From positions 1 through 64,000 of IMG/VR virus record IMGVR_UViG_3300020198_000006: DNA of 64,000 bases; one strand, written 5' to 3'. The DNA comes from a virus. A program made the position numbers and the translations under genes. Shown here piece after piece: positions 50,134-60,268 of the stretch. Within the stretch, counting starts at the first letter, position 1. Every line of letters starts with the position of its first letter. The notes under the pieces are model-generated. The model was not told the DNA's origin. It saw nothing but the letters and a program-made list of their open reading frames with translations, and ran no database searches.

Positions 50134-52152
50134 ATGCCAGTAGATTTTTTTGAAGAAGGACCGACGACCACCCCTAAAAGGGGGAAAAAGGGTTCAACAA
50201 CCCCAATTCTTGATAATTTTTCAAGGGATTTAAACAAATTAGCTGAAGAGGGTAAAATAGACCCAATCATCGGTAGAGATAAGGAAGTAAAAAGAATCGC
50301 ACAGATACTTTCCCGTAAGAAGAAAAACAACGTAGTTGTTGTTGGTGATTCTGGTGTTGGTAAATCGGCATTAGTTGAAAAATTGGCAATGTTAATTGTC
50401 AAGGGTGAGTCTCCATCTAATCTAATAGACAAACGAATAATGTCTTTAGATTTAACTTCTCTTGTTGCGGGAACAAAGTATCGTGGCCAATTTGAAGAAA
50501 GAATTAAAGCGATATTAAATGAACTTCATAATGAACCAAATGTAATCATCTTCATTGATGAATTACATACCATGATTGGTGCGGGAAATGCTAGTGGTTC
50601 AATGGATGCTGCTAATATACTTAAGCCCGCTCTTGCAAGAGGAGAAATACAATGTATCGGAGCAACAACCTTTGATGAATTTAAAAAACATATTGAGAAG
50701 GATTCAGCATTGGTTAGAAGATTTCAAAAAATAGTTTTAAAGGAACCTACCTATCAAGAGACAATACAAATTCTACAAAACTTAAAGGATTCATATCAAA
50801 ACTATCATAAAGTATTCTACGAAGATGGTGTCATTGATACCATTGTTAAACTATCTGGTCGTTTCATAACAGACAGACAATTCCCCGATAAGGCAATAGA
50901 CGTATTAGACGAACTTGGTTCAGATAAAAAAATAAATATCAAAGTTCCCGACATTGTCGAGAAACTAAAAAAGGATGCTGACGAAATCAAAAACAAGAAG
51001 ATACTTGTAGTAAAGAGTCAGAACTATGAACAAGCAGCAAAGCTCAGAGATGAAGAAAGAAAAATAATGTTAAAACTAGAAGCAGAAAAAAATAAGTGGT
51101 TAGAACAACAAAAAGATAACAAGACACCAATCTATGTTGATGATGTCTATGAGATTGTATCTAACATGACGGGTGTTCCCATTACAAAGTTAGACGACAA
51201 CGAAACAAAAAACTTATTAAATCTTGAGGAGATATTGTCCTCCAAGGTTATTGGACAAAACGAAGCGATATCAATTATATCTAAAGCGATTAGAAGAAAT
51301 AGAGTTGGGATAAAAGATAATAACAAACCAATTGGTTCATTTATATTCTTAGGTTCTACAGGTGTTGGTAAAACATTTCTTGCAAAATCAATTGCTGAAT
51401 TATTATTTGGTGACCCCGAAAAAGTGATTCGTGTTGATATGAGTGAGTTTATGGAAAAACACAATGTATCTCGACTCATTGGCTCACCTCCTGGTTATGT
51501 TGGGTATGATGAGGGGGGTCAACTTACCGAAAAAATTAAAAACAACCCATTTGCTGTTGTATTATTTGACGAAATTGAAAAAGCACATAAAGATGTATTC
51601 AACATCCTTCTTCAGATTTTAGATGAAGGATATTTGACTGATTCTTTTGGTAGAAAAGTAAACTTTACTAATACTATCATAATCATGACCTCAAACATCG
51701 GCACCAAGAAAGTTTTCGATTTCGGAGGCGGTGTTGGATTCAATACCTCGTCAAGTGAAACCCAAAAGTATGAGATTAGAAAATCAATCATACAAAAATC
51801 ACTTAAACAACAATTTAATCCCGAATTCTTAAATCGTATTGATGATGTTATTTTATTCAATGCACTCAATGAAGAAACTATTAATAAAATTATCGAGATT
51901 GAACTTTCGAAATTGGTTACAAGATTGTGCGAAAAAAACTTCAACATTTTGTTTGATAAAAGTGTAATCAATCAAATTGCAGAACTTAATACCCAAGAGG
52001 AGTATGGTGCTCGACCAATAAAAAGAATAATACAAAACTTGTGTGAAGACTTTCTTTCCGATGAAATATTGAGGGGCACAATAAAAGAAAATCAGGTAAC
52101 TACAATTAGGTTTAAGGATGGCCAACTAAAGATTTTAGATAAAATGGTGTAA
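50134..52152 (+). CDS. clpC: ClpC-like AAA+ unfoldase lacking the N-terminal domain
   Basis: Two AAA modules (GDSGVGKS; GSTGVGKT), [14 protein letters not shown] motif [14 protein letters not shown] ClpP-binding loop, GARP. Confidence 0.92.
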
Positions 52153-52191
52153 ATATTCTGATTTTTTAAAAAATCATATATATTTATATCT

Positions 52192-52288
52192 ACAAGGAAA
52201 TCTTTGCCGAAATCCTTTCGTTTTTAGTCTGTGGGGTTGAACCCACAAAATGACCTCAAAGCCCCGATTCCCGTCGGGGCTTTTTATC
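52192..52288 (+). ncRNA. Candidate small RNA (late promoter to terminator)
   Basis: TATTTATA at 52181-52188, hairpins AAGGA..TCCTT and TGTGG..CCACA, terminator AAAGCCCCGA..TCGGGGCTTTTT; no credible ORF. Confidence 0.45.
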
Positions 52289-52311
52289 TAAAATTTTTAT
52301 ATATTTGTAAA

Positions 52312-52494
52312 ATGATAAAATATATTTTAATTTTAGTCACGGTATTCTCATTGGGTATCGTGGCGTGTGGTAACAATTCCACCACATCAACGGAAACAAC
52401 GGACTCAACCGCGGTAGCAGTGGACCCTTTCTCACCTACCGCAAATGATTCTACTACTGCTCAGATTACCGACAGTACTTTGAATCAACAATAA
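52312..52494 (+). CDS. Small lipoprotein
   Basis: MIKYILILVTVFSLGIVAC lipobox; Ser/Thr-rich tail with three DST motifs; TATATTTG promoter element just upstream. Confidence 0.7.
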   Translation: MIKYILILVTVFSLGIVACGNNSTTSTETTDSTAVAVDPFSPTANDSTTAQITDSTLNQQ

Positions 52495-52588
52495 TTTGAC
52501 AAGTGCTCACTACCAATGGCGGAAATGTGAGTTGAATGTATTGATTGTGACACCACAGCCTCCAATTTTATAAAACAAATAACTTTAT

Positions 52589-53002
52589 ATGAAATATAAA
52601 ATATATTTAGATGATGTTAGAACCCCCATTGCAAAAGATGAATGGGTGGTGGTCCGTTCGTATGAAGAATTTGTGAATATAATATCCGAAATTGGACTAG
52701 AAAATATCGAACTAATTTCTCTTGACCATGACTTAGGTGATACCGCAATGGCTGAGTGGCATTGTAATGTTTATCACAATTACAAATTGGATTATGATAA
52801 CATTTTGGAAAAGACTGGAATGGATTGTACTAAATGGTTGGTTGAACAATGGATGGGTGGGAAACCTGTTGTAGATGTTGTTATTCACTCGGCTAATGCA
52901 ATGGGTAGTGGGAATATGATGGGATACATAAACAATTATAGACATATACATCGTCTACCTCAGAATTGTGTGAGGGTTCAATGGGAGCACACAATTAATT
53001 AA
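52589..53002 (+). CDS. Cyclic-phosphate processing receiver-like domain protein
   Basis: IYLDDVRTP, ISLDHDLG, TGMDCTKWL, IHSAN..G...M. Confidence 0.8.
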   Translation: MKYKIYLDDVRTPIAKDEWVVVRSYEEFVNIISEIGLENIELISLDHDLGDTAMAEWHCNVYHNYKLDYDNILEKTGMDCTKWLVEQWMGGKPVVDVVIHSANAMGSGNMMGYINNYRHIHRLPQNCVRVQWEHTIN

Positions 53003-55628: not shown

Positions 55629-55704
55629 GGTCGGGTAGCTCAGCGGTAGAGCAATCTCACTAAAACGAGACGTGACGCGATAGGTTCGACCCCTCCCCCA
55701 ACCA
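55629..55704 (+). pseudogene. Degenerate tRNA (identity unclear)
   Basis: GGTCGGG/CCCAACC acceptor, TAGCTCAGCGGTAGAGC D-arm, GGTTCGAC T-loop; irregular 8-nt anticodon loop and weak T-stem. Confidence 0.6.
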
Positions 55705-55750
55705 CTACGATTATCGTTCTTTGACATATTTTTAAAAAACAATTATTATT

Positions 55751-56107
55751 ATGGAACAGTTATTTGCATTTGTTCTTGGTGTTGGCATTATGTCATTGAT
55801 TTATGGTTTAGTGTTAGTATTGAGAATGAGAAAAGAACTCAACAATGTTGAATCAAATTTACATAACACAAAAGATGAGGTTATGTCAATTAATAGGGAA
55901 ATTGAAAGAATCGATAAGAGAATTGACTCAAGGGTCGATAAACTTACCGATATAATATTTCGAGAATTAGAAAATAAGGAAAAAGACCTCCAAGATTCTA
56001 TGACTCGAAATTATGAACAAACAAACAGAGATTTTGAATCCGTATGGAGAGAAATTGATAAACAACAACAAAACAAAAATAAAACACGTAAAGTGTTAAC
56101 AGACTAA
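55751..56107 (+). CDS. Membrane-anchored coiled-coil protein inside the tRNA array
   Basis: N-terminal TM helix followed by heptad repeats (IDSRVDKL). Confidence 0.7.
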   Translation: MEQLFAFVLGVGIMSLIYGLVLVLRMRKELNNVESNLHNTKDEVMSINREIERIDKRIDSRVDKLTDIIFRELENKEKDLQDSMTRNYEQTNRDFESVWREIDKQQQNKNKTRKVLTD

Positions 56108-56141: not shown

Positions 56142-56216
56142 GTTCCTGTCGTCTAATGGTTAGGACACCTCCCTTTCACGAAAGTCATGTCGGTTCGAGT
56201 CCGACCTTGGGGGTAC
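56142..56216 (+). pseudogene. Degenerate tRNA-Glu(TTC)
   Basis: GTCGTCTAATGGTTAGGAC D-arm, CT-TTC-AC loop, GTCGG-TTCGAGT-CCGAC T-arm; anticodon stem CCTCC/GAAAG mismatched, acceptor irregular. Confidence 0.65.
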
Positions 56217-56332: not shown

Positions 56333-56408
56333 CAGGGAAATATCGCGGTTCTGTAACGTACTTGGTTTAGGACCAATGAGTTGCGGGTTCGAATCCTGTT
56401 TTCTCAAC
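56333..56408 (+). pseudogene. Degenerate tRNA-Pro-derived gene (loop TTTAGGA)
   Basis: TTGG-TTTAGGA-CCAA arm resembling tRNA-Pro TTTGGGA, GCGGGTTCGAATCCTGT T-arm; D-arm and acceptor decayed. Confidence 0.5.
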
Positions 56409-56457
56409 TTTATCATCGGTAATGATGATAATTTATTTTATCGTCTATTTCAACGAT

Positions 56458-56529
56458 GTCTCCTTAGCTCAGCGGTAGAGCATCTCGCTGTTAACGAGAG
56501 GGTCCGAGGTTCGAAACCTCGAGGGGACG
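56458..56529 (+). tRNA. tRNA-Asn(GTT)
   Basis: Full cloverleaf: GTCTCCT/AGGGGAC acceptor, GCTC/GAGC D-stem, TCTCG-CTGTTAA-CGAGA, CGAGG-TTCGAAA-CCTCG, discriminator G; CCA not encoded. Confidence 0.92.
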
Positions 56530-56534
56530 CTTTA

Positions 56535-56588
56535 GGACCCTTAGGACTCATAATCATTAGGCCCACGGTTCGAGCCCGTGAGGGTCCA
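56535..56588 (+). pseudogene. tRNA-Met/Ile2(CAT) with deleted D-arm
   Basis: Perfect GGACCCT/AGGGTCC acceptor, CT-CAT-AA loop, CACGG-TTCGAGC-CCGTG T-arm; about 20 nt of D-arm and 5' anticodon stem missing. Confidence 0.7.
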
Positions 56589-56751
56589 CTATGATGACCT
56601 ATAGTGCAAACCATTTGGTGGGGATTTAAAAAAAATTTAAAAATTTTTTAAAAAAATTTTGGAATTTGGTTTTTTTCCTTTATCCTTGTAAAAGATTTGA
56701 GGATTTAGATATTGAGTCGAGAATCCAAAAAATAAGATTGTTCTTTGAATT

Positions 56752-57562
56752 AAGATATTGGGCGGTCTATAGTCCATAAAATAAACCATGAAAGTGGTAT
56801 AAAGTGACCTATTTGGTTTAAGTAGGTTGCGGCTTCCGCAAGGGAGCTCGAGTAGACAAACGAGGTATCGTTGAATCTTGAGTACCGAGGGTAACACTGT
56901 AGGGAAAGTGGTTTGATGAACGGGGGATGCGGGTCCTTCGTTTGAGGTGGGAACACCAATAAGAATAACTCGTAAGGTTTATGCAAGAAACACGGTCATC
57001 CAACTATGTCATTGCGTAATTCAATATGATGGGAATCTTAAAACCGAAAGGTATGGTTGTGTACGGGTGGTGCTGTTACAATCCTTGAATTGAATCTGCC
57101 AAGGTTTATTTCATGAAGGGGTCCAAAAATATGGAGGTCGGGAGACTTCAGAGGGTAGTTCAGTATCGTGTTGTCCAAAAGATAACATGGCTGGTTGTCG
57201 AGCCGCTACCTTCACCATCCGCGAACCAATACTTTGGTCTAATCAATGTCCAAAACATTAAATTAAATCAAGGAAAAGCGCTCGTCAGTCGTCGGAAACA
57301 GGTGACTACTTAGTAATGATGTGTTCATTGCCGTAGAGGGCTCCAAACCCAATACGATTTTTAAGAAAGTTCTCTAATCTCGCAAGGATTAATTGGGGTG
57401 GCAACCTCGAAGAGTGATGAGTATTAAGAGAGTATTCGATGACTCAAGGATTGGTTAATCTAATTGACCGTCACTGGTTGGTACAACCCAAAAGGTTGTG
57501 GATATGAAGGCAAACCATAAACCTTCTAAAGTCAACTACATAAACGTGTAATCTCAACGTGT
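56752..57562 (+). ncRNA. Large structured ncRNA, GOLLD-like (~800 nt)
   Basis: Raised GC, no credible ORF, many hairpins with GNRA-type loops (TTCC-GCAA-GGGA, ACC-GAAA-GGT, CAT-GAAA-GTG, CTC-GCAA-GG), beside tRNAs, upstream host-type promoter (56658-56688) and terminator at 57596; boundaries approximate. Confidence 0.65.
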
Positions 57563-57594
57563 TTTTTATTTTATTGAGAAGCCAACCGCTATAT

Positions 57595-57624
57595 TAAGTC
57601 AGAAGAAATTCTGACTTTTTTTAT
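57595..57624 (+). terminator. Terminator after the large ncRNA
   Basis: AAGTCAGAA-GAAA-TTCTGACTT followed by T-run. Confidence 0.8.
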
Positions 57625-57724
57625 GTTTTTAACATAAATTTCATTATATTATTTTATGAGAATTATTTCCATTGCAAAACAATAATAACATGGATAAAAC
57701 CAAATAAAAAAGAAAAAGAAAAAA

Positions 57725-57955
57725 ATGAGTAAAAATCTTGAAGAAAAATTATTAATCGGATATGAAGAATATTTGAAACTACCAAAAGCAGAGTGTAGTG
57801 GTATTAATAAAAAAACGGAATTATATACAAATGGTTGATGTGTATTATTAGGAAGGTCAATATCACACCCACATCCGCATAGACATTATACATTATTAGA
57901 ATTTGTATATTGGTGTGGAAAAAATGAATTATTATACAGAAGATTTATACCATAA
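57725..57955 (+). pseudogene. Small ORF interrupted by one in-frame TGA
   Basis: MSKNLEEKLLIGYEEYLKLPKAECSGINKKTELYTNG*CVLLGRSISHPHPHRHYTLLEFVYWCGKNELLYRRFIP. Confidence 0.45.
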
Positions 57956-58099
57956 ACCAACCAAATATTAAAGTCATACAAAGTATGAAAATGAAAAATA
58001 AACAACAAAAAAAAATAAAATGTCCTCATTGTGGTATTGAGGGTGGTAACACTATGGGTAGATGGCATTTTGATAACTGTAAATATAAATAATAAAATT

Positions 58100-58849
58100 A
58101 TGTGTAGAATCGTATGTATATCTGACACGCATGGTCTTCATAAAATAATGGGTAAATATGGGCGGTTACCTGAAGGTGATGTATTAATTCATGCGGGTGA
58201 TTGTACAAATGTTGGTAAAGAAAAAGAAATAGAAGATTTTGTTCATTGGTTTCAAAATCTAAAAGGATTTGATACTAAAATTTTTATTGCCGGTAACCAC
58301 GATTTTGGTTTTGAAAATTACAATGGTATTAGACATAATGGTGATGCTCCTTGGTTACACCATTTGTTGAATGAGGAAAATCTCTCACAATCCGATGTTG
58401 TTTATTTACACGATTCTGAGTTTATTATTGAATCACCTGAATTTTCAAGACCAATAAAATTTTATGGTAGTCCCTGGCAACCTGAATTTTATGATTGGGC
58501 ATTTAATTTACCGAGGAATGGGTCTGAGTTAGAAAAAAAATGGTCTCAAATACCTGATGAAACAGATGTTCTTATAACTCATTGCCCACCACACACTAAA
58601 AGAGATTTTATACCAAATAATCTACAAGTTGGTTGTGAACTTCTAATGTTTCGCGTGGAACAATTGAAACCATTAGTTCATGTTTTTGGTCATATCCATA
58701 ATGCACATGGTGCCCAATACAATGAGGATACTATCTTCGTTAACGCCGCGATATGTACCGAAAGATATGTTCCATCAAATAAACCGATAATCATCGATTT
58801 AAATGAAGTCGATGGTAAAATGATTGCTACATATGTCGAAAATAATTAG
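58100..58849 (+). CDS. Calcineurin-like metallophosphoesterase (MPPED-like)
   Basis: SDTH, HAGD, AGNHD, YGSPWQP, LITHCPP, HVFGHIH; likely ATG at 58100. Confidence 0.92.
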   Translation: MCRIVCISDTHGLHKIMGKYGRLPEGDVLIHAGDCTNVGKEKEIEDFVHWFQNLKGFDTKIFIAGNHDFGFENYNGIRHNGDAPWLHHLLNEENLSQSDVVYLHDSEFIIESPEFSRPIKFYGSPWQPEFYDWAFNLPRNGSELEKKWSQIPDETDVLITHCPPHTKRDFIPNNLQVGCELLMFRVEQLKPLVHVFGHIHNAHGAQYNEDTIFVNAAICTERYVPSNKPIIIDLNEVDGKMIATYVENN

Positions 58850-59510
58850 TCCTGTAAGTGTTGTTATATCAACCAGAGCCATAGATGAGGTTCACATGAA
58901 TAAGGTGAAAAAAAGTTTTTCTCACCCTAAAACAGAGATGTTAATTTATGTAAATAACGGGGATTACTCACTCCCTCAGTTATACAATAAAGGTTTGAGT
59001 GAATCAAAACATGACATTGTTGTTTTCATGCACGATGATGTTATTTTTGAAACCACCAACATAACGGGTAAACTAAACAAATTATTTAAAAATCATCCTG
59101 AACACGGAATTATTGGTTTAGCGGGTACCGATACGTTGGTGACAGGTAAATGGTGGGAAAGAACCGACAAAACATATGGTCAGGTTAAACACGAATACAA
59201 CGGTAGAGTACATAGGAACAATTTTTCAGGAACCTTTGGTGATAGTCTTAAAGACGTTGTCGCGGTTGATGGTTTATTCATTGCAGTTCACAAACAAAGA
59301 ATAAAAGAAAAATTTGATGAGGAGTTTCCCGGATTCCATTTTTACGATATACCATTCTGCGTTGCTAACTACACAAAAGGTGTTAAAGTCGGTGTAACAA
59401 CCAAGATTTTAGTTATCCATAAATCAGTAGGTATGTTGAATAAAAAATGGGAAAAGAACAAATTGTTCTTTGAAGCCAAATATGGTAATTTACTCCCACT
59501 AAAAACATAG
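58824..59510 (+). CDS. Glycosyltransferase-like protein (GT-A)
   Basis: SLPQLYNKGL, VVFMHDDV, GIIGLAG, VVAVDGLFIA, FDE...GFHFYD, H.S.G. Confidence 0.85.
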   Translation: MLHMSKIISPVSVVISTRAIDEVHMNKVKKSFSHPKTEMLIYVNNGDYSLPQLYNKGLSESKHDIVVFMHDDVIFETTNITGKLNKLFKNHPEHGIIGLAGTDTLVTGKWWERTDKTYGQVKHEYNGRVHRNNFSGTFGDSLKDVVAVDGLFIAVHKQRIKEKFDEEFPGFHFYDIPFCVANYTKGVKVGVTTKILVIHKSVGMLNKKWEKNKLFFEAKYGNLLPLKT

Positions 59511-59754: not shown

Positions 59755-59836
59755 CTTTTTTATCAATCAATATATTGTGGGTTAAAATTTGTTTTTTAAC
59801 CCTTTTTTATCTATGTTTGTATTCTATTTATCATAT

Positions 59837-60231
59837 GGGGGTGACAGGCATTGATTGGCGTTGATATGGTAAATGGGCACGTAGTCGGATGTCATCTACG
59901 ACTTAAATCTATGGTGGTAGTTTTTAAACGGCAACGTTTATAACAACATGGAAGTAGCAGGTCTTCTTGCAACTTCTAAAGTAGCGGCCTAACCAAGTTA
60001 GGTTCTACAACGGGTCGACGGACATATAACCCAGGAACAGAAGTCCTTACGGTGTAACACCACCTCAGAGTGTTGGAGCAAACTTGACGGCTCTTGAAAA
60101 TCCGGTTATGAACAGGTTTGTTAATAGCTCTGAAAGAAATTAACTATTTGTTGGTTATGAATAATCAAATAAACGTGTAGTCCATTTATGATATTGCGAA
60201 CAAGACGCGGGTTCGAATCCCGCCATCTCCA
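59837..60231 (+). ncRNA. ssrA: tmRNA
   Basis: GGGGGTG/CATCTCC acceptor with G3:U pair, GCGGG-TTCGAAT-CCCGC T-arm, tag ORF 59930-59992 (A)GNVYNNMEVAGLLATSKVAA*. Confidence 0.93.
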
Positions 60232-60232
60232 C

Positions 60233-60268
60233 AAAAAGAAACCCACCTATTGGTGGGTTTTTTATTTT
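60233..60268. terminator. Bidirectional terminator after tmRNA
   Basis: AAAAAGAAACCCACC-TATT-GGTGGGTTTTTT. Confidence 0.8.

What the first reader, a model, noticed from the sequence alone, without database searches (positions are those of the whole stretch)
56752..57562. ~800-nt ornate non-coding RNA next to tRNAs (GOLLD-like)
Seen: own host-type promoter (TTTG 56658, TATCCTTG 56681), strong terminator, GC-enriched, dense hairpins with GNRA-type loops, no credible protein. Established: GOLLD RNAs are ~800 nt, occur in lake metagenomes and phages beside tRNA genes, and have no known function. The family assignment is my inference from size and context; if Rfam does not match, it is a new giant RNA.
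Basis: partly seen in the sequence, partly recalled or inferred. Interest (0 to 1): 0.7.

Follow-up and report, generated by a model that had tools for sequence, protein, structure and literature searches.

The report
GOLLD giant RNA in lake phage
The stretch is a genuine GOLLD RNA, a known ~800-nt phage RNA that builds protein-free nanocages, sitting in a large T4-like lake phage; the one new detail is that its leader carries the same "boxA" signal that bacteria use to transcribe ribosomal RNA.

Summary
Window 56754-57562 (+) is a full-length GOLLD RNA. Rfam RF02032, which models only the 3' half, matches 57151-57560 end to end at 309 bits (cut-off 150). The 5' half (56754-57150) is homologous in 107 of 118 IMG/VR phage loci. 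Its 20 helices are supported by covariation: 97.7% of cells pair, against 36-41% in slid controls. Its motifs match env-38, the GOLLD solved by cryo-EM as a 14-mer nanocage.

The host element is a T4-like myovirus on a 94-kb contig, estimated 28% complete, recurrent in lake water, probably infecting Bacteroidota. GOLLD lies downstream of a tRNA island and 2.3 kb upstream of a phage tmRNA.

The new part is the leader. A Bacteroidota-type promoter (TTTG-N20-TATCCTTG) is followed by the 9-mer GTTCTTTGA (56740-56748). This 9-mer is exact in 53 of 58 non-redundant relatives, against a background of 0.012 per 165 nt. It is the motif found at the boxA positions of Bacteroidota rRNA operons. I infer Nus-factor antitermination and folding help during GOLLD synthesis. 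No paper I read or searched mentions this.

Verdict: a new member of a known family with one modestly novel, testable feature. The function of the cage remains unknown.

The parts
56657..56688 (+). Bacteroidota-type promoter: -33 TTTG (56657-56660), 20-nt spacer, -7 TATCCTTG (56681-56688). Predicted start of transcription is about 56691-56696.
   Evidence: Sequence. The same layout is seen in relatives: TAnnTTTG in 50/58, and a -33-like element as well in 47/58. The start site is inferred, not mapped.
56693..56753 (+). Transcribed leader of about 60 nt with a weak hairpin at 56701-56726.
   Evidence: Fold. The hairpin is not better than shuffles in this copy. In most relatives a clean hairpin of the type TTCGGAAACGTCCGAA sits directly before the 9-mer.
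56740..56748 (+). boxA-like element GTTCTTTGA.
   Evidence: Exact in 53/58 non-redundant relatives within 160 nt upstream, and one mismatch in the other 5. It occurs 0 times antisense, in 1/57 downstream controls, and at a background of 0.012 per 165 nt. The same 9-mer is in Bacteroidota 16S leaders (13/31 exact, 28/31 loose) and in most 16S-23S spacers.
56754..57150 (+). GOLLD 5' domain, about 20 helices, of the env-38 type.
   Evidence: nhmmer finds it in 107/118 loci. Structure counts: 109 pairs, 97.7% paired, 79 pairs with changes on both sides. Motifs are shared with the env-38 construct.
57151..57212 (+). First hairpin of the Rfam GOLLD model.
   Evidence: columns 540-603.
57213..57290 (+). 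A-rich, poorly conserved linker with no embedded tRNA.
   Evidence: Rfam alignment, model positions about 60-135. The columns are variable in A1. No tRNA is called there.
57291..57560 (+). GOLLD 3' domain core, including the long-range helix or pseudoknot and the conserved last loop GUAAUCUCA.
   Evidence: RF02032 at 309 bits. Covariation in columns 685-972 of A1.
57544..57575 (+). Last GOLLD hairpin (4 bp, 9-nt loop) plus a T-rich tail; probable 3' end.
   Evidence: Sequence. A T-rich tail follows this hairpin in 44/58 relatives.
57596..57624 (+). Second, canonical terminator-like hairpin with a T run; a back-up or alternative 3' end.
56458..56530 (+). tRNA-Asn(GTT), the nearest canonical tRNA, 225 nt upstream of the GOLLD core.
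59837..60234 (+). Phage-encoded tmRNA on the same strand, 2.3 kb downstream. It belongs to the recurring tRNA-GOLLD-tmRNA neighbourhood.
   Evidence: Rfam 73.5 bits and ARAGORN. A tmRNA was found in 18 related loci.

Best explanation
The locus is a self-contained transcription unit for a GOLLD RNA of the env-38 type. It is carried by a large T4-like lake phage that probably infects Bacteroidota.

Shown: family membership, the two-domain secondary structure, conservation in more than 100 phage contigs, and a conserved promoter-plus-leader layout.

Inferred, step 1: host RNA polymerase starts at about 56693 from a Bacteroidota sigma-A type promoter.

Inferred, step 2: the nascent leader exposes GUUCUUUGA. 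This acts as boxA does in rRNA operons, loading NusB-S10 and the other Nus factors. That makes the polymerase resistant to Rho on this long untranslated RNA and helps it fold as it is made.

Inferred, step 3: transcription ends at the last GOLLD hairpin with its T run, or about 50 nt later at a stronger terminator.

Inferred, step 4: by homology of both domains to env-38, the ~810-nt RNA assembles without protein into a closed homo-oligomeric nanocage, a 14-mer in env-38.

What the cage does is unknown. My best guess is about 0.3. It rests on the same-strand tRNA island, the tmRNA and the published ideas. The guess is that the cage acts on the translation apparatus during infection, for example by holding or shielding tRNAs or ribosome parts.
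For: Family membership: RF02032 at 309 bits, full model.

Structure: 142 of 208 predicted pairs show compensatory changes across 58 sequences that are 62-81% identical to the window copy. For the 5' domain alone, 97.7% of cells pair against 36-41% in slid controls, 79 pairs change on both sides against 21-35, and 0 of 500 shuffles reach the observed values.

Link to the solved structure: the env-38 construct shares the 5'-domain motifs, and its structure is a D7 14-mer (PMC12286853).

Leader motif: 53/58 exact, at variable distance (-7 to -101) from the RNA. It lies 12-62 nt after a TAnnTTTG box in 51/58, most often 28 nt. The same 9-mer sits at the leader and spacer boxA positions of Bacteroidota rRNA operons. 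In related phages it also lies 14-15 nt before tmRNA genes and 20-30 nt before the first tRNA of arrays. Published boxA consensus sequences: E. coli UGCUCUUUAACA, gamma-proteobacteria GYTCTTTAANA (PMC5725501), and B. subtilis, a hairpin followed by AUGAUCUUUGAAA that binds NusB (PMC13753749).

RNA libraries: contigs at least 80% alike, 90 of them at least 99% alike, cover 56752-57571 in four metatranscriptome libraries from four studies.

Phage identity: Gp23 capsid, Gp20 portal, tail sheath, T4-type terminase and family B polymerase.
Against: No start or end of the RNA is mapped, because the RNA libraries are contigs, mostly from relatives.

NusB-S10 binding is untested, and the 9-mer could serve another purpose.

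The leader hairpin of this copy is weak.

The Flavobacterium rRNA leaders I read use GTTCATTGA or GTTCnTAGA rather than GTTCTTTGA, so host and motif are not matched to a genus.

A GOLLD in Acinetobacter phage Herod sits inside a tRNA array and has no boxA, so the leader is a lineage feature, not a family feature.

I could not align env-38 with a tool, and the oligomer state varies between GOLLDs (10-mer in S. agalactiae, PMC12990946).

The host assignment rests on promoter type, one Flavobacterium MAG contig and a 38.5% capsid match to a Flavobacterium phage.
Confidence: 0.85

Rival explanations
1. The conserved GTTCTTTGA is not a Nus-factor site. It would instead be a phage-lineage signal of another kind, such as an RNase processing site, a binding site for a phage protein, or part of a phage promoter that happens to resemble boxA.
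For: No binding data exist. In relatives it sits very close (14-30 nt) to the mature 5' ends of tmRNA and tRNA genes, which would also suit a processing signal. The motif is absent from the GOLLD locus of Acinetobacter phage Herod.
Against: The identical 9-mer occupies both classical boxA positions, the 16S leader and the 16S-23S spacer, in Bacteroidota genomes. It follows a host-type promoter and, in most relatives, a small hairpin, as described for B. subtilis rrn leaders. It matches 9 of 12 positions of E. coli boxA.
Confidence: 0.3
2. GOLLD has no promoter of its own. It is made as the tail of the upstream tRNA transcript and cut out by RNase P, RNase Z or RNase E.
For: It is on the same strand as the tRNA island. 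No terminator was predicted between 56590 and 56657. Of 231 tRNAs in related loci, 223 are on the GOLLD strand. The Herod GOLLD lies inside a tRNA array. Co-transcription was suggested in PMC5737381.
Against: A consensus promoter followed by a leader is conserved in 50/58 relatives, many of which have no tRNA within 2 kb upstream: 25 of 86 loci with enough flank have one. The two routes are not exclusive.
Confidence: 0.15
3. It is not GOLLD but a new giant RNA, an intron, RNase P or a decayed gene.
For: None was found.
Against: RF02032 scores 309 bits. No other Rfam family matches at E up to 1 over 56750-57562. Covariation supports an RNA structure. There are no long ORFs.
Confidence: 0.01

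Closest known systems
GOLLD RNA (Rfam RF02032), specifically the env-38 type solved by cryo-EM (Kretsch et al., Nature 2025, PMC12286853)
   Same: Full match to the 3'-domain model. The 5'-domain motifs are the same as in env-38. The length is about 810 nt. There is an A-rich linker between the domains. The setting is a lake or phage origin with tRNA genes nearby.
   Different: This copy sits in a T4-like jumbo phage with Bacteroidota-type signals. It has its own promoter and a boxA-bearing leader, which the GOLLD papers I read do not mention. Its oligomer state is not measured.
rRNA operon leader with boxA (Nus-factor antitermination complex, rrnTAC)
   Same: A promoter, then a small hairpin in most relatives, then G-Y-U-C-U-U-U-R-A in the transcribed leader of a long, structured, untranslated RNA. 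The 9-mer is the one found in Bacteroidota rRNA leaders and spacers.
   Different: The product is a phage RNA, not rRNA. No boxC, second spacer copy or RNase III stem was seen. Nus binding is not shown.
ROOL RNA (phage and prophage nanocage RNA)
   Same: A large ornate phage RNA near tRNAs that forms an RNA-only cage. Some gut-metagenome ROOL sequences in the published alignment also begin with UGUUCUUUGAU.
   Different: Sequence and fold are unrelated, and there is no Rfam ROOL match here.

Membership tests
GOLLD (RF02032) | Covariance-model score at or above the curated gathering score (150 bits) over the conserved 3' domain | tested here: met
   309 bits, model positions 1-416 of 416, E about 1e-88.
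GOLLD (RF02032) | Long-range helix or pseudoknot and multi-stem 3' domain kept by compensatory changes | tested here: met
   Columns 690-700 pair with columns 841-850, with for example GC:36 UA:15 and UA:43 CG:14. Few non-canonical pairs are marked in the Rfam alignment.
GOLLD (RF02032) | Large structured 5' domain joined to the 3' domain, about 800 nt in all | tested here: met
   20 helices and 109 pairs, 97.7% paired, 0 of 500 shuffles as high. The core spans 56754-57562, which is 809 nt.
GOLLD (RF02032) | 5' domain of the common or env-38 architecture | tested here: inconclusive
   Short motifs agree by eye in the same order with the env-38 construct in Supplementary Table 4 of PMC12286853. 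No tool alignment was possible because that sequence has no reference here.
GOLLD (RF02032) | Phage or prophage setting, often beside tRNA genes | tested here: met
   T4-like structural genes. tRNA-Asn lies 225 nt upstream. Related loci carry 231 tRNAs, 223 of them on the same strand.
GOLLD (RF02032) | RNA-only homo-oligomeric nanocage | not testable with these tools
   Needs mass photometry or cryo-EM of the transcript.
boxA / Nus-factor antitermination leader | Sequence fits the boxA consensus and equals the motif at rRNA leader and spacer positions of the likely host phylum | tested here: met
   GTTCTTTGA compared with GYTCTTTAA. It is exact in 13/31 16S leaders and in most spacers of the Bacteroidota genomes read.
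boxA / Nus-factor antitermination leader | Lies in the transcribed leader, downstream of the promoter | tested here: inconclusive
   It lies 12-62 nt after a TAnnTTTG box in 51/58, but the start of transcription is predicted, not mapped.
boxA / Nus-factor antitermination leader | Binds NusB-S10 and confers resistance to Rho | not testable with these tools
   Needs binding and reporter assays.

The most novel reading that the evidence does not exclude
In this clade of Bacteroidota phages, the stable-RNA genes (GOLLD, tmRNA, tRNA arrays) are built as mimics of host rRNA operons. A boxA leader recruits the host Nus complex, which acts as antiterminator and as folding chaperone. GOLLD cage assembly in the cell would then depend on the rRNA transcription machinery. 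This would give the first handle on GOLLD biogenesis and a genetic switch, the boxA mutation, to study its function.
Probability: 0.5. Interest if true: 0.55.

Novelty: new member of a known kind. Interest (0 to 1): 0.35.

Why it matters
GOLLD is one of the largest bacterial and phage non-coding RNAs. Its cage structure was solved in 2025, but its function is still open. This copy adds a well-defined example with mapped parts: promoter, leader, two domains and terminator. It belongs to a large family of lake jumbo phages and is represented in freshwater metatranscriptome libraries. The conserved boxA-like leader suggests how such a long untranslated RNA escapes Rho and folds. It also offers a simple mutation to switch GOLLD production down in a future culture system. 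Otherwise the finding is an expected member of a known family.

Tried and rejected
1. Strict Bacteroidota promoter pattern in the window alone: 7 matches against 4.6 expected, not significant. The promoter call rests on relatives instead.

2. Sigma-70 scan: nothing useful for this organism type.

3. Search for the env-38 sequence in IMG/VR with a 27-nt motif: no hit. No tool alignment to the solved RNA could therefore be made.

4. Cultured phages: no cultured phage carries this GOLLD type. There were only two partial 5'-domain hits, in uncultured phages of 635-642 kb, so there is no host from culture.

5. GTDB genomes: one hit only, a 7.4-kb contig of a Flavobacterium MAG. This is weak for host assignment.

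6. RNA libraries: the flanks 56400-56750 and 57575-57750 have next to no cover while the GOLLD core has hundreds to tens of thousands. All runs are contigs, mostly from relatives whose flanks differ. I therefore do not use the uncovered flanks as evidence for transcript ends. It is at most a weak hint.

7. boxA as a universal GOLLD feature: rejected, because it is absent from the Acinetobacter phage Herod locus.

8. The leader hairpin as a boxB-like element in this copy: its fold is no better than shuffles.

9. A paper look-up for the 2009 GOLLD description failed because the paper is not held.

10. I did not try to map the published loop names (L11a, L21a, L21b) onto this copy, because figures are not held.

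Full report
1. What is there

An Rfam scan of the whole window gives four matches above curated thresholds. One is GOLLD (RF02032) at 57151-57560 on the + strand. It scores 309 bits against a gathering score of 150, E about 1e-88, and all 416 model positions are matched. The same match is the only one in the 94,151-bp virus contig that holds the window. At E up to 1, no intron, RNase P or other family matches 56750-57562.

The Rfam model covers only the conserved 3' half of GOLLD, so the 5' half needed its own test.

2. The 5' half

With nhmmer, the window's 56700-57150 matches 107 of them, and the conserved part begins at about 56749-56754.

After removing sequences 93% or more identical, 58 remain. 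They are 62-81% identical to the window copy. RNAalifold on their alignment (A1) predicts 208 pairs, 142 of which show compensatory changes.

For the 5' domain alone there are 109 pairs in 20 helices:
- 97.7% of cells form standard pairs, against 36-41% when partners are slid by 1-3 columns.
- 79 pairs change on both sides, against 21-35 in the slid controls.
- None of 500 shuffles reaches the observed values.

The + strand folds far better than shuffles (z = -4.9) and the - strand does not (z = -1.1). GC content is 42.3% against 33.5% for the window.

The construct used for the 3.0 A cryo-EM structure of GOLLD env-38 is printed in Supplementary Table 4 of PMC12286853. Its first 280 nt carry the same motifs in the same order as the window copy.

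3. The carrier

The window encodes a T4-type major capsid protein (Gp23 family), a Gp20 portal, a tail sheath, a T4-type large terminase and a family B DNA polymerase. CheckV rates the 94-kb contig 28% complete. Relatives of the GOLLD locus lie on contigs of up to 333 kb, so this is probably a jumbo phage.

Thirteen lake-water DNA runs hold 88% or more of the sampled words.

Evidence on the host is indirect:
- Bacteroidota-type promoters (section 4).
- One Flavobacterium MAG contig with this GOLLD type among 185,579 species genomes.
- A Flavobacterium phage as the closest cultured capsid match, at 38.5% identity.

No cultured phage carries this GOLLD type.

4. The transcription unit

In this window alone the pattern is not significant.

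In the 58 relatives the same layout recurs:
- A TAnnTTTG box lies within 70 nt upstream of a leader motif in 50 of 58, against 6.4% of random 70-nt windows.
- A -33-like element is also present in 47.
- The distance from the box to the motif is 12-62 nt, most often 28.

The leader motif is the 9-mer GTTCTTTGA, at 56740-56748 in the window:
- It is exact within 160 nt upstream of the RNA in 53 of 58 relatives. The other five differ by one base.
- It never occurs antisense there.
- It occurs in 1 of 57 downstream control stretches.
- It has a background of 0.012 per 165 nt.
- Its distance from the RNA varies from 7 to 101 nt and the sequence between differs, so it is not simply inherited with the RNA core.

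5. What the 9-mer is

I fetched 16S rRNA loci from Flavobacterium and from a spread of Bacteroidota genomes. The exact 9-mer is in the 16S leader in 13 of 31 loci, and a loose form is in 28 of 31. It is in the 16S-23S spacer of most. Flavobacterium uses GTTCATTGA or GTTCnTAGA instead. Leader and spacer are the two classical boxA positions.

Published consensus sequences are:
- E. coli: UGCUCUUUAACA.
- Gamma-proteobacteria: GYTCTTTAANA (PMC5725501).
- B. subtilis: a small hairpin followed by AUGAUCUUUGAAA, which binds NusB (PMC13753749).

In most relatives a small hairpin directly precedes the 9-mer. In the window copy the hairpin at 56701-56726 is weak.

In related phages the same 9-mer also lies 14-15 nt before tmRNA genes (7 loci) and 20-30 nt before the first tRNA of arrays (11 loci).

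I therefore read it as a boxA that recruits the host Nus complex. That would protect an 800-nt untranslated RNA from Rho and could help it fold while it is made. This step is inferred; nothing here shows binding.

The GOLLD papers I could read or search do not mention boxA, Nus factors or antitermination. It is not a family-wide feature: the GOLLD of Acinetobacter phage Herod lies inside a tRNA array and has no such motif.

6. The 3' end

The last GOLLD hairpin (57544-57560, loop GUAAUCUCA) is followed by a T-rich run here and in 44 of 58 relatives. A stronger terminator-like hairpin follows at 57596-57617.

7. Expression

Four metatranscriptome libraries from four studies hold contigs at least 80% alike that cover 56752-57571. 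Ninety of them are at least 99% alike. These are contigs, mostly of relatives. They show that RNAs of this type are present in RNA libraries. They do not show where this transcript starts or ends.

8. Neighbourhood

Upstream on the same strand lie tRNA-Asn and several tRNA-like elements. Downstream lie a metallophosphoesterase, a glycosyltransferase and a phage tmRNA. Further upstream are a ClpB/ClpC-like ATPase and a cREC_REC protein.

In related loci, 223 of 231 tRNAs share the GOLLD strand, and 18 loci hold a tmRNA, usually downstream.

9. Function

By homology, the RNA most likely forms a protein-free cage like env-38, which is a 14-mer (PMC12286853). The number of subunits differs between GOLLDs (PMC12990946). 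What the cage does is not known. The published ideas are that it holds tRNAs, ribosomes or other cargo. The neighbourhood here fits a link to translation, but I rate that at about 0.3.

10. Verdict

The observation and the interpretation are both confirmed. The RNA is a new member of a known family. The boxA-type leader is a modest, testable addition.

Noticed in passing
window 59788-60234: Phage-encoded tmRNA (Rfam 73.5 bits) with an unusual tag, GNVYNNMEVAGLLATSKVAA. It is preceded by a perfect Bacteroidota promoter (TTTG-N20-TATGTTTG, 59788-59819) and by TATTTAT at 59825-59831. Unlike several relatives, it has no boxA in front.
   Followed up: partly
window 55629-55705, 56148-56206, 56334-56407, 56535-56589: The tRNA island is mostly non-canonical. 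ARAGORN calls only tRNA-Asn cleanly. 55629-55705 has an odd anticodon loop (called 'tRNA-???'). 56535-56589 looks like a tRNA without a D arm: a 7-bp acceptor stem, a T arm and a CUCAUAA loop.
   Followed up: partly
window 55716-55724: A second exact GTTCTTTGA lies 11 nt after the tRNA-like gene and before a 118-aa ORF (55751-56107) that precedes the other tRNAs.
   Followed up: no
related loci, e.g. L117:6921, L084:10303, L051:645, L076:11643: In related phages the same 9-mer lies 14-15 nt upstream of tmRNA genes (7 loci) and 20-30 nt upstream of the first tRNA of arrays (11 loci).
   Followed up: partly
window 50134-53002 and 58031-59510: Genes around the RNA island: a ClpB/ClpC-like double AAA ATPase, a cREC_REC protein (the receiver domain of cyclic-phosphate RNA-repair systems), a calcineurin-like phosphoesterase and a glycosyltransferase.
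   Followed up: no
Supplementary File 2 (ROOL alignment) of PMC12286853: Several gut-metagenome ROOL sequences begin with UGUUCUUUGAU in the 5' flank of the alignment. A boxA-type leader may therefore also precede some ROOL RNAs.
   Followed up: no
LR745206.1 420429-420662 and LR756502.1 434264-434500: Two uncultured huge phages (635 and 642 kb) carry a stretch 68-72% identical to part of the GOLLD 5' domain.
   Followed up: no
L161 (Acinetobacter phage Herod, MW316732.1 24300-27300): This GOLLD lies inside a tRNA array (Lys, Ile and Asn before it; Asp, Phe, Val and Ser after it). The fetched 3-kb stretch has no boxA-like motif.
   Followed up: yes
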